From Candidatus Krumholzibacteriota bacterium (GTDB taxonomy: Bacteria; Krumholzibacteriota; Krumholzibacteriia; JAJRXK01), in assembly GCA_963727455.1 (NCBI GenBank), contig CAVSGG010000017.1, forward strand, positions 128,001-192,000: a stretch of 64,000 nucleotides of DNA. Reading direction: 5' to 3'. The notes beneath the pieces are model-generated. The model had not been told where the DNA came from. It made no database searches and was given only the letters and a program-made list of their open reading frames with translations. The position numbers were made by a program, and so were the translations under genes. Within the stretch, counting starts at the first letter, position 1. Every line of letters starts with the position of its first letter. Below are positions 7,504-62,321 of the stretch, in pieces.

Positions 7504-7614
7504 TTTTTCCCAAGCCGGAGCAATACGGTCCTCGTGTGCTAGAATTGATGCGACGCGTTTCTCCATGGTGGAGAGGTTTTTCGTTCGCACCTGCATTCAA
7601 AGAGGTTGGAAGCA

Positions 7615-8682: not shown

Positions 8683-8697
8683 TCGGGCCGGACGGAA

Positions 8698-10206: not shown

Positions 10207-10262
10207 ACGGTGCAACTCTCGGTTGTCCGCCGCGCGGCGAGAACAAAAGGAGAAAACAATGC

Positions 10263-12851
10263 TTACCCCCTAAGCTCGTTATCTACGGGCCGAAGCGCTT
10301 GCGGGTTGCGCGATTCCCGGGTCTTTTCGGCCGCATGGAGCACGATGACCGTCAGGTCATCCCCGGCGTTTTGCTCCGCCGCTGCCTGCTTGCCGCCGAT
10401 ATGGGCGAAAACCGAGCTGCGGATCTCCTGGGCCAGGGCCTCCGCCGAGGAGTTCGCGTGGCGGCAGACCACGTCCACCAGCCCTTTCGAGCCGAACTGG
10501 TTCTCCCCTTGGTCCTCGGCCTCGGTAACGCCGTCGGTGTAGAGCACAAGGGTATCGCCCTCCTCCAGCTGCACCGTACTCTCGGGATATTCCATGCCGG
10601 GGAAGGCCCCCAGAGGTGTCGCGCCATCTTCCAGCCACGCGCAGCTGCCGTCGGCCCGCCGCAGAAGGGGAGGATTGTGACCCGCGCTCGAGTACACGAT
10701 GCGGCGCCTCTCTGGCTCCAGGGCCGCGAAGAAGAGGGTGGCAAAACGATCGCTATCGGTGCTCTCGAAGAGCGAAGTATTCACCGCTTTCAGGATGGCG
10801 GCCGGGCTGGTGTGCATGGAGGAAAGAGCGCGCAGGGAAGCTTGGAGATTGCTCGCGAGCAGAGAAGCCCCCATTCCCTTTCCCGAGACGTCGCTGATGA
10901 CGAGGCTGAGACGTCCGTCGAGCAGAGAGACAAAATCGTAATAGTCGCCGCTGATCTGGCGTGAAGGCAGATTGATGGCCGCGATGTCATAGCCGGGAAT
11001 CGCTGGAACTCTCGAGGGGAGGAGCCGCTGCTGGATCGAGCGCGCCAGCGACAGTTCTTCCTCGAGCTGACGGCGTGAGATCGCTTCGTCATAGAGACGC
11101 GTGTTCTCCAGCTGCACCCCCAACTGTCCCGCCACGATCGTCAGGAGATCGAGCTCCGCGTTGTTGTAGTCCTCTTCACTGCGTTTTTGGCCCAAACACA
11201 TCGCTGCCACCAGACGATCGCCGGCCAGAGCCGGGACCACTACCTCGAAGCCGTTCTGGGTCAGTGTCCCCAGCTCGCTTTCCAGCTCCGCCCGCTGCTC
11301 GCTCGCGGTTAGGCTCGCCTCGGGCCTCAGCGGGACGTTCAATTGAGACTGGAGAACATCCAGGGTCAACGCGGAGTGCCGGCCGGTGAGATAGGTAGAA
11401 AATTCGCGCAACTGGCTCCCGCCCAGAGACTCCGGCATACTTAGCACCTCGTTACCCGCAAGCAAGATGGTGAAGGACTCGGGGTGGAAGAGGGTGGTGA
11501 TGCGGCTTCTCACCAGTTCGATCAGCGCACGGCGTTCGATGGTCCGCGGCAGGGCCAGGGCCAGCTCCTGCAGTGCGGCTTGCATGTCGTGCTTTTCGCG
11601 GAAGAAACGGCGCTCCAGAAAACTCTGAATGCGATCCCGCGCCGGAGCGAACGCGGCGGCTACGATCAGGGTGGCGATGATGGCCACGATCTGGTTGGTC
11701 TGCCCCGAGGCTTTGAGCAGGACGTTTCCCACCACGATGATGATGAGAAAATACGCCCCGACCAACAGACCGGTGAGGATGGCGTAGATCAGCGAACGCC
11801 GAATGATCACCTCGACGTCCATCAGACGGTAGCGCGCGATGGAATAGCCGAAGGAGACCGGAATGAGCACCAGCGGCACTGCTCCGAAGAGAGCGAAATC
11901 GCTGCGTCCCGTCCACGCTTCGAAGACCATGGTGAAGATCAGGTAGGGCAGAACTCCCAGGACCGTGCCCAGAGTGAGGATCTTCACTTTTTGCCTCATC
12001 TTGACGTCGGTGCTGCGCAGGTAGGTGGTGATGAGACTGCCCAGACCGATGGTGAAATAGAGTCCCAGCACCATCTGCTGGGATCCGGTGATTTGAGCAG
12101 GGCGTGAGCCATAGAACTGGTTGTAGGTGAAGCTGCCGTAGTAGAGCAGAGGAAGCAGGTAGATCAAGGGCACGATCCAGCGTCGCCGGTGCAGTACTTC
12201 ACGATATTGGGGGAAGATGAGGAAGAAGTGTAGAAAGAGCGGCGGCACCAGGAGGGAAGAGAGCGCGGCCATGTTTCGCGAGAACACCTGACTCCAGTAA
12301 TACTCGACCGTGCGTCCGCTGGAGGAAAAGAAGTAGAGCAGGAACACCACGCCGAGCAGAAAGAACACACGCGCTGGATTCTGCCAGGGGTTCTTCCAGA
12401 ACACGTAGAGTCCCACCAGGAAGAAGACGAGTCCTAACCCACAGTAGATGAGATAGGTCGTTACATCGGTGGTGCGTGTACTACCCAAACGTACCTGAAC
12501 TTCGAAGATGTCTCCGCTGCGGTTGACCATGTAGGGAATCACTTCGCCCACGCGGCGGTCACGCAACAGAACGGCAGCTTGCCTCGGAGAGAGAATGGGC
12601 TTGCGATCGATTCCCTCGATTACGTCGCCCACTTCAATGGGAAAGACCTGGCCGTCACGCATTGCCATTTGGGCCGGCCCGGCCGGCACCAGGCCCACGA
12701 TGCGGATCTCGTCCTGCCCGAGCTTCCATTCGGCGCCATCGGTGGGTTTGCGTTGGAGCGCATCGAACGCACAGAAGCCCGCGACCAGGAGGGCCAATAG
12801 TCCCACCAAGAGGTAGGCCAAGGGCGGATGTTGAGCCGTCGAATTGGGCAT
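10263..12851 (-). CDS. Membrane sensor with PDZ-like domain, multi-TM region, GAF-like region and SpoIIE/PP2C phosphatase
   Basis: AGPAQMA..IEVGDVIEGID (PDZ-like); about 9-10 TM helices; ISGDYYD, DVSGKG, SSAGHNPP, LYTDGVTE and GDDLTVI (PP2C). Confidence 0.9.
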   Translation of the reverse strand: MPNSTAQHPPLAYLLVGLLALLVAGFCAFDALQRKPTDGAEWKLGQDEIRIVGLVPAGPAQMAMRDGQVFPIEVGDVIEGIDRKPILSPRQAAVLLRDRRVGEVIPYMVNRSGDIFEVQVRLGSTRTTDVTTYLIYCGLGLVFFLVGLYVFWKNPWQNPARVFFLLGVVFLLYFFSSSGRTVEYYWSQVFSRNMAALSSLLVPPLFLHFFLIFPQYREVLHRRRWIVPLIYLLPLLYYGSFTYNQFYGSRPAQITGSQQMVLGLYFTIGLGSLITTYLRSTDVKMRQKVKILTLGTVLGVLPYLIFTMVFEAWTGRSDFALFGAVPLVLIPVSFGYSIARYRLMDVEVIIRRSLIYAILTGLLVGAYFLIIIVVGNVLLKASGQTNQIVAIIATLIVAAAFAPARDRIQSFLERRFFREKHDMQAALQELALALPRTIERRALIELVRSRITTLFHPESFTILLAGNEVLSMPESLGGSQLREFSTYLTGRHSALTLDVLQSQLNVPLRPEASLTASEQRAELESELGTLTQNGFEVVVPALAGDRLVAAMCLGQKRSEEDYNNAELDLLTIVAGQLGVQLENTRLYDEAISRRQLEEELSLARSIQQRLLPSRVPAIPGYDIAAINLPSRQISGDYYDFVSLLDGRLSLVISDVSGKGMGASLLASNLQASLRALSSMHTSPAAILKAVNTSLFESTDSDRFATLFFAALEPERRRIVYSSAGHNPPLLRRADGSCAWLEDGATPLGAFPGMEYPESTVQLEEGDTLVLYTDGVTEAEDQGENQFGSKGLVDVVCRHANSSAEALAQEIRSSVFAHIGGKQAAAEQNAGDDLTVIVLHAAEKTRESRNPQALRPVDNELRG

Positions 12852-46765: not shown

Positions 46766-46784
46766 AAACCCCTTGCCGCGAGAG

Positions 46785-49700
46785 ATGGCGATGAAGACCA
46801 AGTCCAATCCCACGCCGGAAGTGCGCCCTGGGGAGATCCTCGGGGAATTCCCCAAAGGAGAATTCGTTCGTTTGGACGGGGAGATGTACTACCGGATCGC
46901 GGCGTACGACCTTCTCGAGCCCTTCCTGATGAGCGTGCCGAGCAACACGGACCTCTGGATGTTCGTTGCCTCGGGTGGTGGGTTAACAGCCGGTCGCGTC
47001 GACGCCGACGGAAGTCTGTTTCCCTACCGAACGGTGGACAAACTGCACGATGCCCATTATCACACGGGTCCTCTCAGCTCGATACAGCTCGAGGGAGCCG
47101 AAGGAAGGGTCCTACGCTGGGATCCGTTCGCGAGCGATGCGCTGCACAGTGCCGCGATCGAGAGGAACCTCTACAAAAATCCCTTCGGCAATCGGCTGGT
47201 GTTCGAAGAGATCCATCACGAACTCGGTCTTGCGTTTCGCTATCGCTGGGCGGCTTGTGATGAATTCGGTTGGGTGCGGACGGTCACTCTCGAGAACCGC
47301 TCCGAACGATTGGCGCGGATCACAGTGCTGGATGGACTCAGAAACATCCTTCCCTACGGTGCTCCACTCTCACTCTATCAGCAGGCGAGCAACTTGATTG
47401 ACGCCTACAAGCGATCCGAGGTAGATCGAGAGACCGGACTCGGCATTTTCTCGCTCACCTCCTGTATTACCGACCGGGCAGAAGCTCTGGAGATGCTCAA
47501 GGCGAACACCGTCTGGTGTTGCGGTCTGCAGAGATTCAAGGTCCATCTTTCGCTGGATGTGGCGAAGGACTTCCATGCACGGAAGGTATTGGGCGAAGAC
47601 AAAGTGCTGAGCGGTGCCCGCGGCAACTATCTGGTAAGCGCGCCCTTGGAAGTGAAACCGGGGGAGGTCGCTCGCTGGCACATCGTGGGCGATACCGGTT
47701 CGGATCAGGTTCGAATCGCCGCTCTCCGGCGGAAACTCCTCGAGGAAGATGATCTCAGCGCAGTCGTGGAAGAGAAGCTTCGCGAGGCGGAGAGAGATTT
47801 GCGACGTAACGTGGGAAGCGCGGACGGCCTGCAGCTAACCGCGCACCCGGAAAACTGGGTGCATCATTTCACGAATGTTCTGTTCAACAACATGCGCGGA
47901 GGAGTGTTTTTCAACAACTACTCCGTTCCTATCGGGGACTTCCGGGATTTTCTGCAGGTACGAAATCGTGAGGTTGCGAAGCGGCGCGCGTCGACCCTCG
48001 AGTCGTTGTCGAATTTCTCCGAGATCGAGGAAATTCAAGCCGTGGCACGGGCCTCGCACGATCGCAACTTCGAACGCCTGAGCTACGAGTATCTGCCTCT
48101 CTACTTCGGACGCCGTCACGGTGATCCCAGCCGTCCCTGGAATAGCTTCTCCATTCGAACCAAGAACGAAGCGGGCGTGAAGATTCTGAATTACCAGGGC
48201 AACTGGCGCGACATCTTCCAGAATTGGGAAGCACTAGGCGCGTCCTTTCCGGGATTCCTTCCCAGCATGGTAGCCAAGTTCGTCAATGCCTCCACGGTGG
48301 ACGGGTTCAACCCCTACCGCATCACGCGCGACGGAGTGGACTGGGAAATCGCGGAAGCAGATGACCCCTGGAGCAACATCGGCTATTGGGGCGATCATCA
48401 GATCATCTACCTCTTGAAGCTTCTGGAGAACCTGGATCGCCATCAACCGGAAGCGCTGGGCAAACTGCTAGGTCAGGAGATCTTCAGTTACACCGAAGTT
48501 CCCTACCGAATCCGTCCCTACGAGCAAATTCTGAAGAATCCGCGTCAGACCATCGACTTCGATCATGCCCTCGCGGCGCGCATCGAGCAGAGAGTCAAGT
48601 GCCTGGGAACCGACGGGAAACTTCTGTCAGCGGCCGATGGCTCCACCTACCATGCGAATCTCTTCGAGAAGCTGTTGGTGCCGGCCCTCTCCAAGCTGTC
48701 GAATTTCATCCTCGATGCCGGCATCTGGATGAACACTCAGCGCCCTGAATGGAACGATGCGAACAACGTGCTGGGGGGCGGGGGCGTCTCGGTGGTCACC
48801 CTTTGTCACCTCAGGCGCTACCTGGCGTTCATCGGGGAGCGATTCGAGCGATCGACGCAGGCCGAATTCCCCGTCGCGGGCGAGATCATCGATTGGTTGG
48901 ACGGCATCGAAGTCACTCTTCGCGAGGAGCACGAGCGACTCTCGGGCGAAGAATTGGGCGCGGTCGATCGCAAGCGCATGATGGACGCTCTGGGGAGCAT
49001 CTTTTCGCGATACCGCGATCAGGTCTACGCGAACGGATTCTCGAAAAAGCGCAGCCTAGAGGCGTCCAGGGCCGCCGCACTCTGTCGGCTCGCTCTCGCG
49101 CTTATCGATCGGGCGATCGACGCCAACCGCCGCGAGGACGGGCTCTACCACACCTACAATCTGCTGGAGATCGACGAGGTCCAGGGAACGGCCGAAGTGA
49201 TCCACTTACAGGTCATGCTGGAAGGCCAGGTCGCCGCGCTCAGTTCGGGGCACCTGTCTCCCGAAGAGGCGCTGGAGATTCTGCAGCGGCTCTTCAGCAG
49301 TTCGCTCTACCAGGCACAGCAACGCAGTTTCCTGCTCTATCCCGATCGGGAACTCCCGGGCTTCATGGCCCGGAACGTCATTCCGAGCGGGCGGGTGCAA
49401 TCCATCCCACTCCTCGTCGATCTCCTCGCGCGGGGCAATCGTTCGATCGTGGCGCGTGACGCGGAAGGAATGTTCCGTTTCCACGGGGAGTTCAAGTGCG
49501 CGCACGACTTGGCCCTTGCGCTGGAAGTTCTCGAGGAGCAGGAGGAATGGCAGAGCGGGGTCCGCCGGGACCGCGAGCAGGTTCTCGATCTCTTCGAAGA
49601 AGTCTTTGCCCACAAATCTTATACCGGGCGCTCCGGAGTCATGTTCGGCTACGAGGGCCTGGGCTGCATCTACTGGCACATGGTGGCCAAGCTGTTGCTG

Positions 49701-50291
49701 GCCGTGCAGGAGAACTTCCTGCGGGCGGAGGAGATCGGTGCATCGGCGTCGGTGCGCGAGGACCTGGCCAGCATGTATTTCAGGGTGCGTGCTGGGATCG
49801 GCTACGAGAAGTCCGTCGAGGAATACGGCGCTTTTCCCACTGATCCCTACTCTCATACCCCGGCCAGCGGAGGAGCGAAACAGCCGGGCATGACCGGTCA
49901 GGTCAAAGAGGAGATTCTCACGAGGCGCGGCGAGCTGGGCGTGAAGGTCCAGGAGGGCTGCCTGCGTTTTCATCCCCAACTTCTGAGCCAGCAAGAGCTT
50001 CTCGAGCAGCCCGAGGTTTTCCATTATTTCGACCTGGCCGGAGAAGAGCAGACCCTCGCCTTGTCCGAGGGCAGTCTGGTATTCACCTTGTGTCAGGTAC
50101 CGGTGGTCTTCCGGCGCGCGGCGGCGAAGCCGTGCATGCTGCTCGAGTTTGTCGATGGCAACTCGAGACTGGTGCCCGGCGATACCCTTCCGCCCGAGTT
50201 GAGCAGCGAGCTCTTCTCGCGCAGCGGCCGCATCCAGAAGATCACGGTGGACCTTGCAATAGGCAGCTTCCGCTCGAACAACCGGAGATGA
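46785..50291 (+). CDS. GH149-like beta-1,3-glucan phosphorylase
   Basis: About 1170 aa with no signal peptide; RRHGDPSRPWN, GNWRDIFQNWE, WMNTQRPEWNDANN, YEGLGCIYWHM and PTDPYSHTP...QPGMTGQVKE. Flanked by GH16/GH17. Confidence 0.82.
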   Translation: MAMKTKSNPTPEVRPGEILGEFPKGEFVRLDGEMYYRIAAYDLLEPFLMSVPSNTDLWMFVASGGGLTAGRVDADGSLFPYRTVDKLHDAHYHTGPLSSIQLEGAEGRVLRWDPFASDALHSAAIERNLYKNPFGNRLVFEEIHHELGLAFRYRWAACDEFGWVRTVTLENRSERLARITVLDGLRNILPYGAPLSLYQQASNLIDAYKRSEVDRETGLGIFSLTSCITDRAEALEMLKANTVWCCGLQRFKVHLSLDVAKDFHARKVLGEDKVLSGARGNYLVSAPLEVKPGEVARWHIVGDTGSDQVRIAALRRKLLEEDDLSAVVEEKLREAERDLRRNVGSADGLQLTAHPENWVHHFTNVLFNNMRGGVFFNNYSVPIGDFRDFLQVRNREVAKRRASTLESLSNFSEIEEIQAVARASHDRNFERLSYEYLPLYFGRRHGDPSRPWNSFSIRTKNEAGVKILNYQGNWRDIFQNWEALGASFPGFLPSMVAKFVNASTVDGFNPYRITRDGVDWEIAEADDPWSNIGYWGDHQIIYLLKLLENLDRHQPEALGKLLGQEIFSYTEVPYRIRPYEQILKNPRQTIDFDHALAARIEQRVKCLGTDGKLLSAADGSTYHANLFEKLLVPALSKLSNFILDAGIWMNTQRPEWNDANNVLGGGGVSVVTLCHLRRYLAFIGERFERSTQAEFPVAGEIIDWLDGIEVTLREEHERLSGEELGAVDRKRMMDALGSIFSRYRDQVYANGFSKKRSLEASRAAALCRLALALIDRAIDANRREDGLYHTYNLLEIDEVQGTAEVIHLQVMLEGQVAALSSGHLSPEEALEILQRLFSSSLYQAQQRSFLLYPDRELPGFMARNVIPSGRVQSIPLLVDLLARGNRSIVARDAEGMFRFHGEFKCAHDLALALEVLEEQEEWQSGVRRDREQVLDLFEEVFAHKSYTGRSGVMFGYEGLGCIYWHMVAKLLLAVQENFLRAEEIGASASVREDLASMYFRVRAGIGYEKSVEEYGAFPTDPYSHTPASGGAKQPGMTGQVKEEILTRRGELGVKVQEGCLRFHPQLLSQQELLEQPEVFHYFDLAGEEQTLALSEGSLVFTLCQVPVVFRRAAAKPCMLLEFVDGNSRLVPGDTLPPELSSELFSRSGRIQKITVDLAIGSFRSNNRR

Positions 50292-51907
50292 CGATGCACC
50301 TGAAAAAGCTCTGCTACGCGCTGGTGATTCTGATTTGTCTGGCCACGGTTCCCTTCGGCCAGGCGCGGGCACAGTGCATTCTTGCCAATCCCAGCTTCGA
50401 GCTGTCCGGATCGGGGGGGCATACCTTTGGCGGCTGGGAGCAGTTCGGCGCGGTAGGTTCCGTGACCGTCGCATCGCACGGTGCCAAAGCTGCGCGCGTC
50501 TCGGGTCCGAACTACGGAGGTTGGGACGTGTCCGCCTATTGGCAAAGCCAGGATTGCTCGGTGGGCGAGCAGTGGAAGGTCACGGGGCACGTCCTGGTGC
50601 CCTCCAGCAAGCCTCTGGTGGGAGATTGCATTGCACTGGTGAACGTCGAGTGGCGCGATTCGGGGGGCAACCTCATCGACTATGATTCCTTCACCGTGGC
50701 CGATGCCGGCTCTCCGACCGATACCTACCTGGATTTCGATGTGACGAGCGGTCCGGCGCCTTTGGGCACGGTCTCCGCCCGTCTGTTGCTGGGGGTTCTG
50801 CAGAGCCCCAGCGATCCGAGCCCTGACGTCTACTACGACCAGGTCACCTTCTTTTCGACTTCCTATCCGACGATCGACGATGTGCAGTGGAACGACTTTC
50901 CCGGCGGGAAAACCGTGAGCTTCGGCGGGTACACCTGGCGCGTCAAAGGGCCCGGATTCTACGGTCCCGGAGCCAATCTCTTCTGCGACTCGTCGGACTG
51001 CGTTTGGGTGGATGCGAGCGACCAACTTCATATCACGCTCAAGAACCGCAGCGGTTCCTGGTACAGCACCGAGGTCGTGAATGAACAGGCATTGGGCTAC
51101 GGGGACTACATTCTGACTACGGTGGGCCGTCTGGACCTCATCGATCCGCAGGCCGTGCTAGGGATCTTTTTGTGGCAGTACGGTCCCTGCTGGGATGAGG
51201 GCTATCTGTGGTGGAATCCCTTCAACGAAATCGACATCGAATACAGCCGCTGGCAGAACCCCTCAGCCGACATCGCCCAGTTCGTCGCGCAGCCTTTCGA
51301 CTATCCCGGCAACATTACGCGCTTCGACGCTAGCTTCACGGCAAATGAGGTCACCAGTCATGCGATGCGCTGGTTGCCCGACCGCGTAGAGTACCGCGTA
51401 TGGCGCGGAGGCCCACAGGACGAATCTCCGGCGAACCTTATCGCCTCGTGGACCTACACGGGGCCGCACATTCCCCGTCCGGAGCAGCCCCGCATGCACC
51501 TGAACCTGTGGAGAATCGACGGCACGCCGGCCTCGAACCAGGAAGTGATCTTCCAGGATTTCACTTTCATTCCCGAGGGGGGCGCCACCGCGGTGGAGGA
51601 GGGGACCTCCCGTTCGATTCCCTCGCACGCGGCAGCTCGTCTCTATCCCGCGGTTCCCAATCCTTTCAACCCCCAAACGACCCTGCGCTTCGAGCTGGCA
51701 AAGGACGGGCAGGTACAGCTGCAGGTCTTCGACCGCAGCGGCCGCCATGTGCGGACTCTGGAAAATCGCTACCTCACGGCGGGTGCGCACTGGGCCGTGT
51801 GGAACGGGAAGGACGATCAGGGCAGGGCGGTGGCTTCAGGGGTGTACTTCCTGCGCTTGAGCGGTGAGGGCTTTCAGGAGAGCCAGAGGGTGGCGCTGGT
51901 GAAGTAG
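50288..51907 (+). CDS. Secreted GH16-like endo-glucanase with N-terminal CBM-like domain and C-terminal FlgD-Ig-like domain
   Basis: Signal peptide; LANPSFE...YYDQVTF (CBM4-like); catalytic EIDIE; tail PNPFNPQTTLRF...WNGKD..G..VASGVYF. Confidence 0.85.
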   Translation: MTMHLKKLCYALVILICLATVPFGQARAQCILANPSFELSGSGGHTFGGWEQFGAVGSVTVASHGAKAARVSGPNYGGWDVSAYWQSQDCSVGEQWKVTGHVLVPSSKPLVGDCIALVNVEWRDSGGNLIDYDSFTVADAGSPTDTYLDFDVTSGPAPLGTVSARLLLGVLQSPSDPSPDVYYDQVTFFSTSYPTIDDVQWNDFPGGKTVSFGGYTWRVKGPGFYGPGANLFCDSSDCVWVDASDQLHITLKNRSGSWYSTEVVNEQALGYGDYILTTVGRLDLIDPQAVLGIFLWQYGPCWDEGYLWWNPFNEIDIEYSRWQNPSADIAQFVAQPFDYPGNITRFDASFTANEVTSHAMRWLPDRVEYRVWRGGPQDESPANLIASWTYTGPHIPRPEQPRMHLNLWRIDGTPASNQEVIFQDFTFIPEGGATAVEEGTSRSIPSHAAARLYPAVPNPFNPQTTLRFELAKDGQVQLQVFDRSGRHVRTLENRYLTAGAHWAVWNGKDDQGRAVASGVYFLRLSGEGFQESQRVALVK

Positions 51908-55833: not shown

Positions 55834-56391
55834 ATGTTGGACCTGAATCTGGAGGATCGGATCGTCGCGGCTCTCCGTCAGATCATGCGTGCGGTGGATT
55901 TGCACTCGCGGCGGCTGGTGGAGGTCTGTGGACTGACCGGCCCCCAGCTGGCGGTTCTGCAAGAAGCCAGGCGTTTGGGGCCGGTTTCGGCTACCACCCT
56001 GGCCCGTGCCGTTCATCTCAGCCTGCCCACCCTGGTGGGAATTTTGGGTCGGCTTGAATCGCGTGGACTCGTGCGACGTTCGCGCGATGCGACGGATCGC
56101 CGCTCGAAGAGCGTCAACATCACCGATGCGGGGCGCGATACGCTCGAGAAAGCGCCCTCGCTCCTGCAAGATCGCTTCCGCGCCGAGCTGGGACGTCTCG
56201 AGGAGTGGGAACGGTATCTGATGCTCAGCAATCTTCAGCGGATCGCCACCATCATGGGGGCGGAGAGCCTGGAGGCGGCTCCCCACCTGGTAGCGGACGG
56301 GCGCAGTCTGGATGCCGCTGCACACAAAGGTGAGGCTCCAGGCAACGCGATGCCACACGACGGAGACCTCAACTCGGAAAGAAGTCAATGA
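55834..56391 (+). CDS. MarR family regulator, CosR/EctR (osmolyte regulator)-like
   Basis: ALRQIMRAVDLHSRRL...GLTGPQL, DRR, APSLLQDRF...LEEWE and LQRIA.IM.AE.LEAAP closely follow the CosR/EctR pattern as recalled. Confidence 0.88.
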   Translation: MLDLNLEDRIVAALRQIMRAVDLHSRRLVEVCGLTGPQLAVLQEARRLGPVSATTLARAVHLSLPTLVGILGRLESRGLVRRSRDATDRRSKSVNITDAGRDTLEKAPSLLQDRFRAELGRLEEWERYLMLSNLQRIATIMGAESLEAAPHLVADGRSLDAAAHKGEAPGNAMPHDGDLNSERSQ

Positions 56392-57161
56392 TGGAAACAG
56401 CTGCAGGTCTAACGGCGGAGATGCAACCAGTCGCCCCGCCCGTTGCAATCCCCAAAACCCTGCGCGCTCCCCAGGACGGCGAGTACGTGGTTGCCAAACT
56501 CGATGGCCATTGGGAGGAAATCCGGATTCAGGATTACGCTCGCCTCTTCGAGGTTCCGGGACTCTACGAGCAGGTCGTATATGAAGCGCTCGAGTGCAGT
56601 TCGCCGCAGACGATCTCCTCACTGCTCGTGGAACGTCTGGAGGCCGACGGACGCTCCATGGAACAACTGAAGGTGCTCGATCTCGGCGCCGGGAACGGTT
56701 GCGTGGCCGAGGAACTGAGGGACCACGGTGCTCGTGAGTTTCTGGCGATCGACATCTGCCCCGAAGCGAAGGAAGCGGCCGACCGCGATCGGCCCGGCCT
56801 GTACGATTCTTATGTCATCGACGACTTGACCGCACCTCGGCCGTCCACCGTGACGACGCTGAAGCAGGCTCAGCCCAATTGCCTGTGTTGCGTGGCCGCC
56901 TTGGGCTTTCATGACATTCCCGCCGATGCTTTTGCCAACGCCCTCGATTTCGTGGAACCAGATGGATGGGTCGCATTCACGATCAAGTCCGATTTCGTCC
57001 AGAATGGCGACGCTTCGGGCTTCCGGCGACTCATTACGAAACTCATCGATACCGGCGAACTCGAGGTTGAACGGCGCCGGACCTACACGCATCGGCTCGC
57101 TACCGATGGGCGTCCGCTCGAGTATCTCGCCTACGTTGCTCGCAAGAGGGTCAACCCCTAG
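56388..57161 (+). CDS. Class I SAM-dependent methyltransferase
   Basis: KVLDLGAGNG, AIDI. ATGA overlap with the MarR gene. Confidence 0.88.
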   Translation: MMETAAGLTAEMQPVAPPVAIPKTLRAPQDGEYVVAKLDGHWEEIRIQDYARLFEVPGLYEQVVYEALECSSPQTISSLLVERLEADGRSMEQLKVLDLGAGNGCVAEELRDHGAREFLAIDICPEAKEAADRDRPGLYDSYVIDDLTAPRPSTVTTLKQAQPNCLCCVAALGFHDIPADAFANALDFVEPDGWVAFTIKSDFVQNGDASGFRRLITKLIDTGELEVERRRTYTHRLATDGRPLEYLAYVARKRVNP

Positions 57162-57224
57162 CAGTGGTCTCTTGGCGCAAGCCCAAGTCGGGAGTGATTC
57201 TCCATCGATTTTCACCGTGGCATA

Positions 57225-57668
57225 TTGCCTCTGTCGATCCTGTTGTGTCTCTGCTCGGCCCTCTCTGCGTTGGCCGCACAGGCGCCGCAGTTCGAAGAGT
57301 CCGAGATGAGTTCCGCTGAGGGCTACGCGATGATCCGCTGGGATCATCCTGACGAGTCCCTCGATGCACAGTTCCAACTGGTCGTCTTGGGTCCCGATAG
57401 TTTACGAATGACCTACGAAACGCCGGAGCAGAGCACCTTCCTTTCCGGGCTCTCCAATGGAGATTATGAATTGCGAGTGCGTCACCGCTCCGACTCCTCG
57501 GACGAGTGGGAGCAGTGGTCGCAGCCCATGACTTTGGAAGTCGAGCATCATCCTTTGGGGCTTGCCTTCGCCCTCTTCGTCGCGGGCGCCATCATGTTTC
57601 TTTCGATCGTCATCTTCCTGATTCGCCACGCCAACGACGCTCTGGAAGTCGAGAACGGAGCCGTCTGA
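57225..57668 (+). CDS. Small exported FN3-like domain protein with C-terminal TM helix
   Basis: IRW...FLSGLSNGDYELRVR...WS (FN3-like), then HHPLGLAFALFVAGAIMFLSIVIFLI. Start uncertain. Confidence 0.7.
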   Translation: MPLSILLCLCSALSALAAQAPQFEESEMSSAEGYAMIRWDHPDESLDAQFQLVVLGPDSLRMTYETPEQSTFLSGLSNGDYELRVRHRSDSSDEWEQWSQPMTLEVEHHPLGLAFALFVAGAIMFLSIVIFLIRHANDALEVENGAV

Positions 57669-59101
57669 TGATCATTCTGAGCACTACCCACGGCTGGCTG
57701 CTGTTGGCCGGTTTGGCCCTCTTATGGGTCGTCTTGGGCATCTATTGGGGACGCCGGGCCAAGTCGCTGGAAGGCTTCATGCTCGCCAACCGCAACGTGG
57801 GGCTCGCTCTGGGGACTGCCACCGCCGTCGCCACCTGGATCACTTCCAACACCACCATGCTGGCGCCGCAATTCGCGCTGCAGCTGGGGCTGTGGGGAAT
57901 CCTGGCTTACTGCACCGCCTCCATCGGCCTCTTTCTCTTTGCGCCCATGGCGCGGCGCATTCGCGAACTCATGCCGCATGGCTTCACCAGCACCGAGTTC
58001 GTTCGTCTCCGCTACGGGAAGACGGCATGGATCGTCTTCCTCATCATCTCCCTCTTCTATGCCATCACCTGGATGGTCAGCATGGGGATGGCGGGAGGAA
58101 TCCTGCTGGAATCTCTGGCTGGAATTCCCTATGCACAGGGCATGAGCGTAATTCTGGGGGTGTGTGTGTTGTACACGCTCTTCGGAGGGCTTTACGCCGT
58201 CATTGGTACGGACTTCATCCAGAGCCTCATCATCCTGGTGGGTACGGTGGCAGTGGCGATCACCGTGATTCAGCGCGTTCCCCTGCACGGCGTGTACGAC
58301 AATCTCGAGGCCCATCGCCCCGAGCTTCTGCGCGTTCTGTTTCCCGCGGCCATCATGGCGGTGTTCAACAATCTGCTCTTCGGTCTCGGCGAGGTGTTTC
58401 ACAGTAATGTCTGGTGGAGCCGCGCCTTTGCCATGCGCAAGGGTGTGGGGAAGAAGGCATACATCCTGGCCGGTTTGCTCTGGCTTCCCGTACCCATCGT
58501 GGCGGGTTTCTTGGGTCTCGCCGCGCCGGCTCTCGATATCGCGATTCCGCGTCCGGACATGGTGGGGCCGGTAGTCGCCGCGACCATTTTGGGCTACGCC
58601 GGCGCGGTCCTGGTGTTCGTGGTCGTGTTCTGTTCTTTGGCTTCGAGCATCGACAGTCTGCTGGCCGCGACTTCGGATCTGGTGACGAAGGACCTGGTCC
58701 AACCCATTTTCATGCCTGAGGCCGATGAGCGAAGGCTTCGAAGTGTCTCCACTTGGGTCGTCGTCGCGGTGGGCGCAATCACCTGGCTATTGTGCCTACC
58801 CAAGATGGGCACTCTGGCCAGCGTGCTCTTCTTCGCCGGACCGATGGTGGCGAGTACGATCTGGCCCATCCTCTATGGCCTGTATCGGCGCGATGCAACC
58901 GGCAAGGGCGCGGTGGCCGCGATGTCAGGGGGCACGATCGTCGGACTGGTAGCCTACTTCACTCTGGGCTGGTATACCGCCTCGCTCATCGGCACCGCGG
59001 TCTCCTTCACTCTCTTGGTGACGATCACCAAATTCGCACCCAGTCGCTTCGACTGGCGCAAACTCGACGCACGGCCCGAAAACGCGATGGAGGTGAGCTA
59101 G
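57668..59101 (+). CDS. Sodium:solute symporter (SSS) family transporter
   Basis: FMLANRNVG, ATWI, EFVRLRYG, YTLFGGLYAVIGTDFIQ and ASSIDSLL; about 13 TM; TGATG coupling. Confidence 0.92.
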   Translation: MIILSTTHGWLLLAGLALLWVVLGIYWGRRAKSLEGFMLANRNVGLALGTATAVATWITSNTTMLAPQFALQLGLWGILAYCTASIGLFLFAPMARRIRELMPHGFTSTEFVRLRYGKTAWIVFLIISLFYAITWMVSMGMAGGILLESLAGIPYAQGMSVILGVCVLYTLFGGLYAVIGTDFIQSLIILVGTVAVAITVIQRVPLHGVYDNLEAHRPELLRVLFPAAIMAVFNNLLFGLGEVFHSNVWWSRAFAMRKGVGKKAYILAGLLWLPVPIVAGFLGLAAPALDIAIPRPDMVGPVVAATILGYAGAVLVFVVVFCSLASSIDSLLAATSDLVTKDLVQPIFMPEADERRLRSVSTWVVVAVGAITWLLCLPKMGTLASVLFFAGPMVASTIWPILYGLYRRDATGKGAVAAMSGGTIVGLVAYFTLGWYTASLIGTAVSFTLLVTITKFAPSRFDWRKLDARPENAMEVS

Positions 59102-59222
59102 GTGTTCTCACTCGTGTTTTTCAGCGTTCTGTATTGGATCGGAATCGTCTTGACCAGTGTTGGGCATTCTCACTCTCATCGTTCTCTTCTTGATCGATGC
59201 TGGAAGGAAGAAGCTATGGTAA
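59102..59222 (+). CDS. 39-aa single-TM protein obscured by one extra base
   Basis: Removing one G from the GGG run at 59162-59164 gives MFSLVFFSVLYWIGIVLTSVGILTLIVLFLIDAGRKKLW*. Its TAA overlaps the next ATG (TAATG). GGAGG RBS upstream. Confidence 0.6.
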
Positions 59223-60333
59223 TGGCGCCGGATTCAATTTCCCAAAAGTCCGCTAACGATCTCTCGAGAGCCAAGCCTGGACTCAATTCCAAGGGAGGAG
59301 TGCTCGATCCGGGCAAGCTCCTCGAGGCACACGGGCAGACCATAGACTTCGAGCGTCTGCATTCCCTCAGTGGAAAGTCGATCCTCGGCGTTGAACAACT
59401 CAGTCGCGAATCGGTCATCGAGCTGTGCAAATTCAGCGCTCTCTTGGAACGCACCGAAATCGCCAGCCACCACCCGTTGGACGGGAAGATCTGTATCACC
59501 GCGTTCTTTGAGGCGAGTACGCGCACGCGTCTTTCCTTCGAGAGTGCCGTTCTGCGACTCGACGGAAAGATGCTGAGCGTGCCCGACGGGCGAGTCACGG
59601 GCGTGGCCAAGGGAGAATCGCTGGAGGACATCGGCGAGATGTTCAACAGCCTATGGCGATCTGGTCGTCATGCGACACCCCGAAACTGATGCCGTCGAGC
59701 GGATCTCCAGAAATCTCACCCTTCCGCTTGATCAATGCGGGCAACGGCTCGGGGCAGCATCCCACGCAGGCCCTGCTCGATTGGTACGCCCTCTTGAAAT
59801 GGCGGCCCGAGCTCGTCTGGCGCGAGGTCAAGCCCGAGAAGAAGATCCATCTCGGAATCATCGGTACCCCGGGCAGCATGCGCGCGGTCAAGAGTTTCCT
59901 GCGAATGTCCCTGTTGTTCCACCATGCTATCGACCGCATCACCGTGGTCTCCGAAATGCGAGATCCATTGGGTCCGCGGCTGAGAGAACTCACGAAGAAC
60001 TCGTCTGTCGAGCTGAAGTGTACCGACGACGTTTCCAAGATCTTGCCCGAGCTGGATGTCATTTATATGAACTCCATCGCCTTTCTCGGAGATAGTTATC
60101 GACAAATGGACTCGCGCTTCAGCCTGAGCCACAAGAGTTCCCTGAAGAAGGGTGCGGTGGTGCTCCATCCTCTCGCACGCCGGCAGGAACTCTCGGAGTC
60201 CCTCGACGCCAGTCAGCACAACCTCTACTTCGCACAGGCCTCCGGGGCGGTTTTCATGCGTCAGGCTTTACTCATCACCATTCTGGATCGCATTCGCGCG
60301 CTGCCCAAGAGCGTGCTCTATCTTGTCAGCTGA
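59222..60333 (+). CDS. Aspartate carbamoyltransferase-like paralogue (about 369 aa) interrupted by two +1 frameshifts near 59648 and 59728
   Basis: FFEASTRTRLSFESA and KGESLED, then +1 frame YGDLVVMRHP, then +2 frame LINAGNGSGQHPTQALLD and HPLARR. 1112 nt minus 2 equals 370 codons. Confidence 0.85.
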
Positions 60334-60353
60334 GAAGAAGGGAAGGGACCACC

Positions 60354-62321
60354 GTGTGCGGGATCGTCGGAACTTGGAAACTCGATAAGGTAGAGGATGC
60401 CGAGCGCGCTGCACTCGAAGACGCCATGGAGCTCCTGAAGCACCGGGGGCCGGACGGCAGGGGCCGGCACATCGATGAGGATCGTGGCTTGGCCATGGGC
60501 CACACGAGACTCTCCATCATCGACCTCAAGACGGGGGACCAGCCCTTGATCGACTCCGTCACCAAAAATGTGCTCACGGTCAACGGCGAGTTTTATGATT
60601 ACAAGACCATACGCGCCCAACTCGCCACGAAGGGACATCGCTTCCAAACCAAGTCGGACAGTGAGATCGCGCTGCATCTGTTGCGTGTTCACGGACTCGA
60701 CTTCGTTCACCATCTGCGTGGCGAGTTTGCCTTCGCGCTCTATGATCGGGCGGAAGACCGCCTCCTTTTGGTTCGGGACCGCTTCGGAATCAAACCACTG
60801 TACTACCATTTCAGCGAAGATCGCATCGTCTACGCTTCTGAAGTCAAGGCCATCCTGGCCATGCCGAACCTGCCGCGAGTACTGTCCCGTCAGGCCGCGC
60901 TCAACCAGCTCATGCACGTCATGGTTCCGGGCACCACCGCTTTTGAGGGAGTGAAGGCCGTGAAGCCCGGTCACATGCTCTCGATTCGCAAGCGCAACGG
61001 CCGCCTGGAGTTGAAGGAGATAAAGTACTGGGACATGGAGTTTCCCGAGTCGAAGGCGTACAAGCGCAAGCGTGACCCCAATCTCTTCATCGAGGAGGTG
61101 CGAGAGGGTCTCATTGACGCGGTTCGAACTCGTCTGGAGGCCGACGTTCCGGTGGGTTGCTATCTCTCGGGCGGAATCGACAGCTGCTCCATGCTCGGCT
61201 TGGCCACTCCAATGCAGCAGAGTCCGGTCAAGGCATTCACGATCAGCTTCGACCACGCCGACTACGACGAATCCAAGATCGCGGCGGAGATGGCTGAACG
61301 AACGGGAGCCGATCAGGTCGTACTCCGACTGAAGGGTGAGGATCTTTACGGCGGTCCCTACGTCCGCGCGGTGTGGCACGCGGAGAGAACTTTCTACAAC
61401 ACCCTCGGAGTGGCGAAGTGGCACATGAGCCGCCGCGTGCACGATTGTGGATTCAAGGTGGTGGTGACGGGCGAGGGTTCCGACGAACTCTTCGCCGGCT
61501 ATCCCTTCTTCAAACGCGACTATTTCCAGCAGGATCCCAAGGCGAGCAAGAGCAAGAGAGAGTCTGCTGCCTCGGACGCTCTCTTCCAGGGCGCCATTCT
61601 GGCTGAGGAGCAATCCCATCACCCCGCGTTCGATGATCTGTGCGGTTTCACTCCGTCCTGGATTCAGCCCTGGCTGCTCACACTGAAGGAAATTCAGCCG
61701 CTCCTCACGGCTGGAATGCGCGAAGAACTCTCAGATTACGATCCGGTGGCAGCGATCGCCGAGCAAATCGATCCGAAAATGCTGCGCGGGCGACATCCAC
61801 TGGACAAGGCGCAGTACACCTGGATCAAGACCATGCTCGAGGGACAGATCCTGAGCTGGGGGGGAGACAGGGTCGACATGGCCAACTCAATGGAGAGTCG
61901 ACCCGCATTTTTGGACCATCATCTCGCCGAGCTGGCGACGACGATTCCTCCGGAACTGAGAATCAGGAACGGGGTAGAGAAATGGGTGTTGCGCGAAGCA
62001 ATGAAGGGCGTGCTCCCGAAGACTCTCTACGAGCGGCCGAAATTTGCGTTCATGGCGCCGCCCAGTCGCACCAACCAGGGCAATCGCCGCGCGGTGGAAC
62101 CTCTCCTGCGCTTGCTCTTGAATCGCGAATCTGTCGAACAGGCCGAGCTTCTCGATCCTGGCGCCGTGGATTCGTTCTTGAAAGAATGGCGCGGTCAACG
62201 CGACGCGGCGCGTTCCCGCCGCCTCGACATCATTCTGAATCACATTTTGGGCTTACAAATTCTCCACAGCGAGTTCGTGGAGGCGAAACCGGGCGCGTCG
62301 CTCGCGCGTGCTTACGCGTAA
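60354..62321 (+). CDS. asnB: Asparagine synthase (glutamine-hydrolysing) family amidotransferase
   Basis: N-terminal MCGI (Ntn Cys), HRGPD, RLSIID, NGEFY, RDRFGIKPLY, YLSGGIDS, TGEGSDE and EKWVLREAM. Confidence 0.93.
   Translation: MCGIVGTWKLDKVEDAERAALEDAMELLKHRGPDGRGRHIDEDRGLAMGHTRLSIIDLKTGDQPLIDSVTKNVLTVNGEFYDYKTIRAQLATKGHRFQTKSDSEIALHLLRVHGLDFVHHLRGEFAFALYDRAEDRLLLVRDRFGIKPLYYHFSEDRIVYASEVKAILAMPNLPRVLSRQAALNQLMHVMVPGTTAFEGVKAVKPGHMLSIRKRNGRLELKEIKYWDMEFPESKAYKRKRDPNLFIEEVREGLIDAVRTRLEADVPVGCYLSGGIDSCSMLGLATPMQQSPVKAFTISFDHADYDESKIAAEMAERTGADQVVLRLKGEDLYGGPYVRAVWHAERTFYNTLGVAKWHMSRRVHDCGFKVVVTGEGSDELFAGYPFFKRDYFQQDPKASKSKRESAASDALFQGAILAEEQSHHPAFDDLCGFTPSWIQPWLLTLKEIQPLLTAGMREELSDYDPVAAIAEQIDPKMLRGRHPLDKAQYTWIKTMLEGQILSWGGDRVDMANSMESRPAFLDHHLAELATTIPPELRIRNGVEKWVLREAMKGVLPKTLYERPKFAFMAPPSRTNQGNRRAVEPLLRLLLNRESVEQAELLDPGAVDSFLKEWRGQRDAARSRRLDIILNHILGLQILHSEFVEAKPGASLARAYA

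What the first reader, a model, noticed from the sequence alone, without database searches (positions are those of the whole stretch)
55834..62321. Candidate undescribed osmolyte pathway: CosR/EctR-like regulator, Na+ symporter, altered carbamoyltransferase and AsnB amidotransferase
Seen: seven co-oriented, mostly tightly coupled genes (ATGA, TGATG and TAATG overlaps): MarR, methyltransferase, FN3-TM protein, SSS symporter, 39-aa TM protein, ATCase paralogue and AsnB. No other pyr genes are nearby. Known: CosR/EctR regulate compatible-solute genes. The osmolyte NAGGN is made by an N-acylating enzyme plus an asparagine-synthetase-like amidotransferase (Ngg/AsnO). N-alpha-carbamoyl-L-glutamine 1-amide (NCGA) is a reported osmolyte of Ectothiorhodospira marismortui, and I know of no genes assigned to it. 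Inference: the transcarbamylase N-carbamoylates Gln/Glu and AsnB amidates the free carboxyl(s), giving NCGA or a related neutral solute. The symporter would scavenge the solute or its precursor.
Basis: partly seen in the sequence, partly recalled or inferred. Interest (0 to 1): 0.9.

Follow-up and report, generated by a model that had tools for sequence, protein, structure and literature searches.

The report
Candidate carbamoyl-amino-acid-amide solute gene cluster
A regulator, a three-part sodium symporter, an aspartate-carbamoyltransferase look-alike that has lost its aspartate-binding residues and an asparagine-synthetase-like amidotransferase form a gene cluster found in hundreds of mostly marine and salt-lake bacteria, including the one bacterium known to make the orphan salt-protectant carbamoyl-glutamine amide.

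Summary
Window 55834-62321 carries co-oriented, tightly packed genes: MarR, methyltransferase, FN3-fold/TM protein, SSS symporter, 39-aa TM microprotein, ATCase paralogue and AsnB-like amidotransferase. A canonical pyrB lies on another contig. Three single-base insertions break the microprotein and ATCase-like frames in this MAG. Short-read contigs of public runs lack all three, so they are probably consensus errors.

The pair ATCase-like + AsnB-like is adjacent in 241 of 243 de-duplicated loci from about ten phyla. The symporter lies upstream in 222 of 238. No member keeps ATCase's Arg229 or Gln231 (0 of 286). Many loci add an N-carbamoyl-amino-acid-amidohydrolase-type M20 enzyme and an isochorismatase-type amidase. 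Several lineages also place glycine-betaine synthesis and BCCT genes alongside. Named hosts are mostly marine, halophilic or soda-lake bacteria. The genome of Ectothiorhodospira marismortui DSM 4180, the described producer of N-carbamoyl-glutamine amide (NCGA), carries MarR-M20-amidase-ATCase-like-AsnB-like.

Best reading (about 0.5): synthesis, recapture and turnover of a neutral N-carbamoyl amino-acid amide, most likely NCGA. Nothing is biochemically shown. Rhodopirellula baltica has the cluster, yet no such solute was reported for it. I found no paper that assigns these genes.

The parts
55834..56391 (+). MarR-family regulator (185 aa)
   Evidence: PF01047 50 bits. No NCBIfam model reaches its cut-off. 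Homologues at 51-63% identity lie near the cluster in Planctomycetota and related loci, and at 29-51% directly upstream in Gammaproteobacteria.
56388..57161 (+). Class-I SAM methyltransferase (257 aa), accessory
   Evidence: Methyltransf_23 36 bits. A homologue is seen in only 9 of 268 loci of 7 kb or more. ATGA overlap with MarR.
57225..57668 (+). FN3-fold protein with N-terminal signal/TM helix and C-terminal TM helix (147 aa)
   Evidence: AlphaFold pLDDT 93.4. Foldseek best hits are FN3 domains, E 4.7e-5. tblastn hit in 144 of 268 loci of 7 kb or more.
57665..59101 (+). Sodium:solute symporter (SSS) family transporter (478 aa)
   Evidence: PF00474 93.6 bits; TIGR00813 131 bits, below its cut-off; no specific subfamily. 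Upstream of the ATCase-like gene on the same strand in 222 of 238 loci with room.
59102..59222 (+). 39-aa single-TM microprotein, frame broken here by one extra base near 59159/59160
   Evidence: Intact in G003 and G008. A like ORF lies in 214 of 257 loci. Asp32 and the C-terminal Trp39 are invariant in 44 sequences. The complex model with the SSS scores ipSAE 0.82 against a best control of 0.00. Contigs of runs X1 and X2 lack the extra base.
59222..60333 (+). ATCase paralogue (about 370 aa when read through), two extra bases at about 59650 and 59726
   Evidence: OTCace_N and OTCace hits on the pieces. Below the TIGR00670 cut-off. Intact in G008 (P0001). Contigs of X1, X2 and X4 lack the extra bases. 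S and A stand at the ATCase R229 and Q231 positions.
60354..62321 (+). AsnB-like glutamine-dependent amidotransferase (655 aa, starts MCG)
   Evidence: TIGR01536 433.4 bits over the 267.1 cut-off; NAGGN amidotransferase TIGR03104 303 bits, under its 570 cut-off. Cys2 in 264 of 266 homologues. Directly downstream of the ATCase-like gene in 241 of 243 loci.

Best explanation
[quoted passage not shown] Inferred steps: (1) the ATCase paralogue transfers the carbamoyl group of carbamoyl phosphate to the alpha-amino group of an amino acid other than aspartate (Gln or Glu); (2) the AsnB-like enzyme adenylates a free carboxylate and amidates it with ammonia taken from glutamine by its N-terminal Cys domain; (3) the SSS symporter, working with the FN3/TM protein and the 39-aa microprotein, takes up or recaptures the solute or its precursor; (4) where present, the isochorismatase-type amidase and the M20 carbamoylase take the solute apart again; (5) the MarR protein controls expression. 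Shown here: the gene content, its conservation, the altered active-site residues, the host range and the presence in the NCGA producer. Inferred: every catalytic step, the substrate and the link to salt. In this MAG the ATCase-like and microprotein genes carry single-base insertions that are more likely consensus errors (about 70:30) than real inactivation.
For: The pair is invariant: AsnB-like lies directly downstream of ATCase-like in 241 of 243 de-duplicated loci with room, and SSS lies upstream in 222 of 238 (all loci were ascertained through the ATCase-like gene). The carbamoyl-phosphate motifs (STRTR, MRHP, HPTQ), K84 and R167 are kept, while R229 and Q231 are replaced in 286 of 286 members (position 229: S 162, A 116, T 7, K 1). 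The family is one clade (SH-aLRT 99), sister to true pyrB. It is an extra copy beside canonical pyrB in G000 and in 5 of 5 other genomes. AsnB-like keeps Cys2 in 264 of 266. An M20 gene (143 of 268 loci of 7 kb or more) scores 537.8 bits to the carbamoylase/allantoate-amidohydrolase subfamily, and its next best named model is ErtE, N-carbamyl-L-glutamate amidohydrolase (371 bits, below cut-off). An isochorismatase-family amidase is present in 100 of 268. These two hydrolases are what one would need to undo an N-carbamoyl group and a carboxamide. GSMT + SDMT (+ BCCT) sit beside the cluster in 14 of 268 loci from Planctomycetota, Alpha- and Gammaproteobacteria and an Oligoflexales MAG. Named hosts include Idiomarina, Kangiella, Alteromonas, Kordiimonas, Rhodopirellula, Enhygromyxa, Nitrosomonas halophila, Thioalkalivibrio and soda-lake MAGs. 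49 of 55 genomes of the family that holds E. marismortui have the gene, against 6 of 151 sampled genomes in the family of Nitrosomonas halophila. E. marismortui DSM 4180 (FOUO..., L335) has MarR-M20-amidase-ATCase-like-AsnB-like, and NCGA is its reported solute. G000 has neither hydrolase, and Ectothiorhodospira has no SSS. So the two enzymes are the core, and they work without import.
Against: No enzyme assay, metabolite or expression datum exists for any member. In passages of PMC3694870, R. baltica, which carries the full cluster (L035/L110), accumulates sucrose, glutamate, trehalose and mannosylglucosylglycerate; 'carbamoyl' and 'amide' have no occurrence in that text. In many Gammaproteobacteria the two hydrolases are co-oriented and interleaved with the synthetic genes. 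Without post-translational control that would be a futile cycle. Some hosts are not saline by name (Sphingobacterium faecale, a chicken-gut Sphingobacterium MAG, sludge and soil MAGs), and the window itself comes from material labelled wetland. In the review passage I saw, NCGA is named for one species, whereas the cluster is in hundreds. The MarR is only 34% identical to an ect-linked MarR. Substrate identity rests on lost residues, not on gained ones.
Confidence: 0.5

Rival explanations
1. Uptake and assimilation of an external nitrogen-rich ureido or amide compound. The symporter imports it, the amidase and M20 enzyme hydrolyse it, and the ATCase paralogue runs phosphorolytically to save the carbamoyl group as carbamoyl phosphate.
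For: The symporter is the first gene of the conserved core. The M20 gene passes the 'allantoate amidohydrolase' subfamily cut-off, and the amidase weakly resembles biuret amidohydrolase and RutB. Hydrolases and transporter are co-oriented in Gammaproteobacteria. Catabolic transcarbamylases are known (recalled: putrescine and catabolic ornithine carbamoyltransferases).
Against: An ATP-consuming, glutamine-hydrolysing AsnB-like enzyme with an intact Cys2 (264 of 266) has no place in such a route, yet it is the most constant partner (241 of 243). G000 has no hydrolase of either type (genome 88.9% complete). Ectothiorhodospira clusters have no symporter. No carbamate kinase was among the conserved neighbours.
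Confidence: 0.13
2. The carbamoyl group is a transient protecting group, like N-acetyl in arginine synthesis. The ATCase-like enzyme blocks the amine, the AsnB-like enzyme amidates the alpha-carboxylate, and the M20 enzyme then removes the carbamoyl group. The product would be a free amino-acid alpha-amide.
For: M20 follows AsnB-like on the same strand in most Planctomycetota loci (35 of 40). The chemistry is feasible (inference).
Against: M20 is missing from about half of the loci of 7 kb or more (143 of 268) and from the whole G000 assembly. No such product is known as a solute (recalled).
Confidence: 0.08
3. In this particular genome the cluster is a decaying relic: the frameshifts in the ATCase-like and microprotein genes are real.
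For: Three unpaired 1-nt insertions lie within 570 nt of the window. The same-genus genome G003 has its own frame breaks in the ATCase-like 3' part and many in AsnB. With this query, only 1 of 4 other same-genus genomes has the gene.
Against: Contigs of independent short-read runs lack the extra base at 59159 (2 of 2 runs that cover it), at 59650 (2 of 2) and at 59726 (3 of 3). The other five genes are intact. The insertions lie in a stretch dense in strain differences, as expected of a mixed consensus.
Confidence: 0.3
4. The pair makes a different small molecule, for example a guanidino compound by amination of the ureido carbon, or a secondary metabolite or signal unrelated to osmotic balance.
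For: The AsnB-like C-domain belongs to the same ATP-pyrophosphatase superfamily as argininosuccinate synthetase (recalled). Its best solved relative is a hydroxyamidotransferase of natural-product synthesis (7ylz, 163 bits).
Against: The neighbouring hydrolases are of carbamoylase and amidase type, not amidinohydrolases. No other biosynthetic genes are conserved nearby. Betaine genes are the recurrent neighbours.
Confidence: 0.08

Closest known systems
NAGGN pathway (Ngg + AsnO, with a hydrolase in the same 'trio'; TIGR03103/03104/03106)
   Same: An N-blocking enzyme plus an asparagine-synthetase-like, glutamine-dependent amidotransferase makes a neutral glutamine-derived amide solute, with a hydrolase gene in the cluster (trio composition recalled). 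The AsnB-like protein here scores 303 bits to the NAGGN amidotransferase model.
   Different: The score is below that model's cut-off (570). The N-blocking enzyme is a transcarbamylase, not a GNAT/ATP-grasp enzyme. No dipeptide-forming enzyme is among the genes. A dedicated three-part SSS transporter is present.
Aspartate carbamoyltransferase catalytic chain (PyrB)
   Same: Same fold family and closest solved relatives (E. coli ATCase, E 1.6e-38, about 135 bits). Carbamoyl-phosphate site, K84 and R167 are kept. Sister clade in the tree.
   Different: R229 and Q231 are replaced in all 286 members examined. HPLPR is changed to HPLAR. There is a roughly 45-residue N-terminal extension. Scores fall below the TIGR00670 cut-off (180-206 bits in intact members). 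It is always an extra copy beside a true pyrB. No pyrI or pyrC lies in the examined 50-64 kb of the window or among the conserved neighbours.
Ectoine clusters of Planctomycetota with EctR (MarR) and the SSS importer EctI (PMC13342039, passages seen)
   Same: The same architecture of MarR regulator + SSS transporter + solute-synthesis genes, in the same phyla.
   Different: No ect genes are here, and no ectC hit was found in G000. The MarR is 34% identical to the one ect-linked MarR found. Relation of this SSS to EctI was not tested, because no EctI sequence was at hand.
SSS transporters with small membrane subunits (e.g. VC_2705 family large/small pair, ActP/YjcH; recalled)
   Same: A small single-TM protein is encoded next to an SSS carrier and is predicted to pack against it.
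   Different: The microprotein (about 40 aa, invariant Asp and C-terminal Trp) matches no Pfam family (best E 0.013), and a second FN3-fold partner is present.

Membership tests
Aspartate carbamoyltransferase (PyrB, TIGR00670) | Whole-protein score at or above the curated cut-off (236.95 bits) | tested here: not met
   The window pieces score 53.9 and 75.5 bits. Intact members score 179.7-206.2 bits in 5 genomes, each of which also has a true pyrB at 300-310 bits.
Aspartate carbamoyltransferase (PyrB, TIGR00670) | Carbamoyl-phosphate binding motifs (S-T-R-T-R, R105 in MRHP, H134/Q137 in HPTQ) | tested here: met
   Alignment to E. coli ATCase and family consensus. Clade 2 has LRES/LRD in place of MRHP but keeps the Arg.
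Aspartate carbamoyltransferase (PyrB, TIGR00670) | Aspartate-binding Arg229 and Gln231 (roles recalled from the ATCase-PALA literature) | tested here: not met
   0 of 286 members have Arg or Gln at these positions; the window reads N-S-I-A.
Asparagine synthase, glutamine-hydrolysing (TIGR01536) | Score above cut-off and N-terminal Cys nucleophile | tested here: met
   433.4 bits against a 267.1 cut-off. Starts MCG. Cys2 in 264 of 266 homologues. Passing the model does not show that the substrate is aspartate.
NAGGN amidotransferase AsnO (TIGR03104) | Score above cut-off (570.1) and a neighbouring Ngg gene | tested here: not met
   303.4 bits. None of the seven genes, and no conserved neighbour, is a GNAT/ATP-grasp enzyme.
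Sodium:solute symporter family (PF00474) | Pfam gathering score | tested here: met
   93.6 bits against 22.8. No equivalog model (PutP, PanF, ActP) reaches its cut-off.
EctR/CosR subgroup of MarR regulators | Orthology to regulators encoded beside ect or bet genes | tested here: inconclusive
   34% identity over 155 aa to a MarR near ectC in 1 of 4 Pirellulaceae ect loci, one weaker hit and none in the other two. MarRs 54-59% identical to the window's lie beside GSMT/SDMT/BCCT. Public names are generic. No reference EctR or CosR sequence was at hand.
Fibronectin type III fold | Seven-strand beta sandwich matching solved FN3 domains | tested here: met
   pLDDT 93.4. 43 PDB matches at E <= 0.001; the top ten are mostly FN3 or cytokine-receptor domains. 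The sequence model alone fails (fn3 E 0.1).
NCGA biosynthesis genes (none described) | Presence in the genome of the described producer | tested here: met
   L335 = NZ_FOUO01000006.1. FOUO00000000 is Ect. marismortui DSM 4180T (PMC8877833 table text). This is necessary, not sufficient: 49 of 55 genomes of that family have the gene.

The most novel reading that the evidence does not exclude
[quoted passage not shown] If so, this solute (or a close N-carbamoyl amino-acid amide) is not a curiosity of one purple sulfur bacterium. It would be a widespread, overlooked osmolyte of marine, saline and soda-lake bacteria in about ten phyla, spread by gene transfer. It would be served by a new three-part Na+ symporter whose about 40-aa subunit has an invariant Asp and C-terminal Trp.
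Probability: 0.35. Interest if true: 0.85.

Novelty: new variant of a known kind. Interest (0 to 1): 0.8.

Why it matters
As far as I could find, NCGA has had no genes since its description in 1991 (citation seen in PMC1224877). A 2020 genome survey of phototrophs lists it only as a 'possible candidate' solute for species without betaine or ectoine genes (PMC7824335, passages). A concrete two-enzyme candidate, present in the type strain and cloneable from many cultured, harmless marine bacteria, makes that question directly testable. If confirmed, thousands of genes now named 'aspartate carbamoyltransferase' and 'asparagine synthase' would need re-annotation. Nitrogen-rich carbamoyl amides would enter marine osmolyte and nitrogen budgets. 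A new transcarbamylase specificity and a microprotein-dependent SSS transporter would also be defined.

Tried and rejected

The ectC search (PF06339) found nothing in G000 or in five named cluster-bearing genomes. The family rang in no control genome, so these blanks show little. It did ring in 19 of 101 genomes of the Pirellulaceae sample.

My first tree is invalid. My script picked wrong-frame ORFs in high-GC loci (rows of 700-800 aa). It was rebuilt from tblastn-anchored frames.

The promoter, terminator and inverted-repeat scans of the window gave no more than shuffles.

The ESM Atlas only returned clusters auto-named 'aspartate carbamoyltransferase', commonest phylum Pseudomonadota.

Names in the protein collection gave no functional lead for the MarR or the ATCase-like protein.

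Literature searches for genes of NCGA, or for this gene combination, found nothing relevant.

The R. baltica salt-shock paper does not mention asparagine, carbamoyl, symporter, MarR or pyrB in its main text. Its supplementary tables, which I could not see, may hold expression values for these genes.

Considered and dropped: glutathione-amide synthesis (the host range is far wider than that of purple sulfur bacteria), and allantoin or oxalurate catabolism (no other ureide genes are conserved, and AsnB would be unexplained).

Parts of the stretch without contig cover in runs X3 and X4 are not used as evidence.

Full report
WHAT IS IN THE WINDOW. Between 55834 and 62321, all on the + strand, lie the following genes:
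- a MarR regulator (55834-56391);
- a class-I methyltransferase (56388-57161, ATGA overlap);
- a 147-aa membrane protein (57225-57668);
- an SSS-family symporter (ATG 57665-59101, ATGA overlap);
- a small TM reading frame (59102-59222);
- an aspartate/ornithine-carbamoyltransferase-family gene (59222-60333, TAATG overlap);
- an asparagine-synthase-type amidotransferase (60354-62321).

The flanks are unrelated: an MFS_2 sugar carrier and a GH17 hydrolase upstream, and an unassigned 319-aa ORF downstream. The window is G000:C17:128001-192000 of a MAG (3.46 Mb, 18 contigs, 88.9% complete, 6.7% contamination). The closest named record (L134) has proteins 95-98% identical for MarR, methyltransferase, FN3 protein and SSS. 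It is titled a Candidatus Krumholzibacteriota MAG.

FRAME BREAKS. The carbamoyltransferase gene runs through three frames. Compared with the same-genus genome G003, the window has one extra C at about 59650 and one extra G at about 59726. A third extra base near 59159/59160 splits the small TM frame.

Five public runs labelled wetland metagenome hold the stretch. I laid four of them. Their contigs lack the base at 59159 (X1, X2), at 59650 (X1, X2) and at 59726 (X1, X2, X4). That is every run that covers each place. The contigs differ from the window at other letters too: the X1 contig has 14 other letters over the 1,106 bases it covers. They may therefore be a sister strain.

G003 has its own breaks in the 3' part of this gene and many single-base insertions in AsnB. 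I read the window's breaks as consensus errors (about 70%) rather than decay. Only raw reads would settle it.

THE CLUSTER IS WIDESPREAD. The intact homologue of G008 (P0001, 364 aa) found 69 loci. Two motif scans and one further protein scan of the species-representative genome collection followed. The protein scan found 316 relatives and kept 80.

After de-duplication, 302 loci remain. All were found through the carbamoyltransferase gene, so the counts below are conditional on it:
- AsnB-like directly downstream on the same strand: 241 of 243 loci with at least 1.5 kb of room.
- SSS upstream on the same strand: 222 of 238 with room.
- Among the 268 loci of 7 kb or more: FN3 protein 144, M20 hydrolase 143, isochorismatase-family hydrolase 100, MarR 69, GSMT 14, SDMT 14, BCCT 14, methyltransferase 9. 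Most of these loci are only 8 kb long, so the counts are lower bounds.

No other gene is widely conserved nearby.

Titles name Planctomycetota, Verrucomicrobiota, Bacteroidota, Myxococcota, Alpha-, Beta- and Gammaproteobacteria, Cyanobacteria (Cyanobium), Leptospirales, Calditrichia, KSB1 and Krumholzibacteriota.

THE TRANSCARBAMYLASE. The best solved relatives are E. coli ATCase chains (E 1.6e-38, about 135 bits). In that alignment STRTR, K84, R105, H134/Q137 and R167 are kept. The M-T-R-V-Q segment (R229, Q231) reads M-N-S-I-A, and HPLPR reads HPLAR. That R229 and Q231 hold aspartate's carboxylates is recalled from the ATCase-PALA literature.

The change is family-wide. Position 229 is S 162, A 116, T 7, K 1. 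Position 231 is A 234, S 30, V 12, T 8, C 1, N 1, out of 286 (consensus of 54 sequences).

In a 31-row tree, the 18 family members form one clade (SH-aLRT 99), sister to six canonical pyrB sequences, with OTCases outside. There are two subclades, and their branching does not follow the host phyla, for example Cyanobium with Kangiella and Idiomarina.

G000 and 5 of 5 other genomes each have a true pyrB over the cut-off plus this paralogue below it. G000 has carB, so carbamoyl phosphate is available.

THE AMIDOTRANSFERASE. It passes the generic asparagine-synthase model (433 bits) but not the NAGGN, EPS or AsnB-equivalog models. Its best solved relative is a hydroxyamidotransferase (7ylz, 163 bits), followed by E. 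coli AsnB. Cys2, the glutaminase nucleophile, is kept in 264 of 266. The two exceptions (Ser) are Sphingobacterium.

THE TRANSPORT MODULE. The 147-aa protein folds with high confidence (pLDDT 93.4) into a 7-strand sandwich between an N-terminal helix and a long C-terminal TM helix. Its PDB neighbours are FN3 domains.

Between the SSS and the carbamoyltransferase gene, 214 of 257 loci have a hydrophobic ORF of about 40 aa. In 44 aligned copies from many phyla, Asp32 and the C-terminal Trp39 are invariant.

A complex model of SSS and microprotein gave ipSAE 0.82 (median of three runs), with a best control of 0.00. That mark was reached by 58 of 80 solved complexes and 2 of 110 mismatched pairs in the tool's calibration. 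The runs agree in at least 99% of contacts, and the partner's pLDDT is at least 86. The model supports binding but does not show it.

THE REGULATOR. It is a MarR without a specific family, and public names are generic. MarRs 51-63% identical sit near the cluster in Planctomycetota and related loci, next to betaine genes where these are present. MarRs 29-51% identical sit directly upstream in Gammaproteobacteria. Of four Pirellulaceae ect loci fetched, one has a neighbouring MarR 34% identical over 155 aa (E 2.5e-18), one has a weaker hit, and two have none. 'EctR/CosR-like' is therefore a likeness of role and context, not shown orthology.

LINK TO OSMOLYTES AND TO NCGA.
- The M20 gene passes the carbamoylase/allantoate-amidohydrolase subfamily model (537.8 bits). 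Its next named model is ErtE, N-carbamyl-L-glutamate amidohydrolase (371 bits, below cut-off). The other hydrolase is an isochorismatase-family enzyme with weak likeness to biuret amidohydrolase, RutB and nicotinamidase. One enzyme class removes N-carbamoyl groups and the other cleaves amides, which fits a compound carrying both.
- GSMT (496 bits, over cut-off), SDMT and BCCT genes adjoin the cluster in several unrelated lineages.
- The host names are overwhelmingly marine, halophilic or soda-lake.
- 49 of 55 genomes of the family that contains E. marismortui carry the gene, against 6 of 151 sampled in the family of Nitrosomonas halophila.
- L335, contig NZ_FOUO01000006.1, carries MarR-M20-amidase-ATCase-like-AsnB-like. 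PMC8877833 lists FOUO00000000 as Ect. marismortui DSM 4180T. PMC1224877 states that NCGA is accumulated by E. marismortui, citing Galinski and Oren 1991. For both papers I saw passages only.

AGAINST.
- Nothing is measured.
- R. baltica has the full cluster, but the NMR study of its solutes names only sucrose, glutamate, trehalose and mannosylglucosylglycerate. 'Carbamoyl' and 'amide' do not occur in that text (passages).
- In many Gammaproteobacteria the order is MarR-FN3-M20-amidase-SSS-microprotein-ATCase-like-AsnB-like on one strand. Synthesis and breakdown would then be co-transcribed.
- The Ectothiorhodospira clusters lack the SSS and FN3 genes.
- Some hosts are not saline by name.
- Thiorhodospira sibirica (L347) showed only the ATCase-like gene.

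MECHANISM AND RIVALS. The invariant pair, the lost aspartate residues, the retained alpha-carboxylate Arg167 and the active glutaminase domain point to N-carbamoylation of a non-aspartate amino acid followed by carboxylate amidation. The two enzymes suffice on their own: G000 has neither hydrolase, and Ectothiorhodospira has no importer. This argues against a purely catabolic or import-dependent route and against a protecting-group route that needs M20. I put 0.5 on a carbamoyl amino-acid amide solute system. Within that, I put about 0.35 overall on NCGA itself.

NOVELTY. Searches of the held library for NCGA genes or for this gene combination found none. Imhoff's 2020 survey mentions NCGA only as a possible solute, without genes. 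NCBIfam (June 2026) has no specific model for either enzyme. Public names are 'aspartate carbamoyltransferase', 'aspartate/ornithine carbamoyltransferase family protein' or 'hypothetical protein'; at least 1807 clusters score E <= 1e-60 among the 8000 candidates scored. Subscription-journal papers are outside the library, so prior description cannot be excluded.

Noticed in passing
L011 (G003) 8560-10300, matching window 60354-62321: The same-genus genome has at least ten unpaired single-base insertions in its AsnB-like gene and a shifted stretch in the 3' part of its ATCase-like gene. This is either error-prone consensus or real decay of the cluster in this genus. With this query, only 1 of 4 other same-genus genomes has the gene at all.
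   Followed up: partly
L322, L324, L325, L329, L332, L334, L335, L336, L341: All Ectothiorhodospira loci have MarR-M20-amidase-ATCase-like-AsnB-like but no SSS, FN3 or microprotein genes. Thioalkalivibrio, in the same family, keeps them.
   Followed up: partly
L117 1857-3809 (-) and L124: In the two Sphingobacterium loci the AsnB-like protein starts MSG instead of MCG. The glutaminase nucleophile is lost, so the enzyme may use free ammonia or be inactive.
   Followed up: no
L205, L270, L300, L370, L372, L390, L392: In Leptospirales/Spirochaetes-type loci the M20 and amidase genes are inserted between the ATCase-like and AsnB-like genes, a different gene order with the same parts.
   Followed up: no
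tree: The branching inside the ATCase-like family cuts across phyla (Cyanobium with Gammaproteobacteria; Enhygromyxa and Krumholzibacteriota with Planctomycetota; Leptospiraceae with Saprospiraceae and Calditrichia). This suggests repeated transfer of the whole cluster.
   Followed up: partly
L347 (Thiorhodospira sibirica) 7001-8023: Only the ATCase-like gene was found, with no AsnB-like, SSS or hydrolase hits within 15 kb. [quoted passage not shown]
   Followed up: no
window 46773-51907: Two long + strand ORFs (46773-50291 and 50090-51907) overlap by about 200 nt in different frames. This may be another single-base frame break of this assembly.
   Followed up: no
window 56388-57161: The methyltransferase between MarR and the FN3 gene occurs in only a few loci (Krumholzibacteriota, some Phycisphaerae and others; 9 of 268). 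It could modify the product in these lineages or be unrelated.
   Followed up: no
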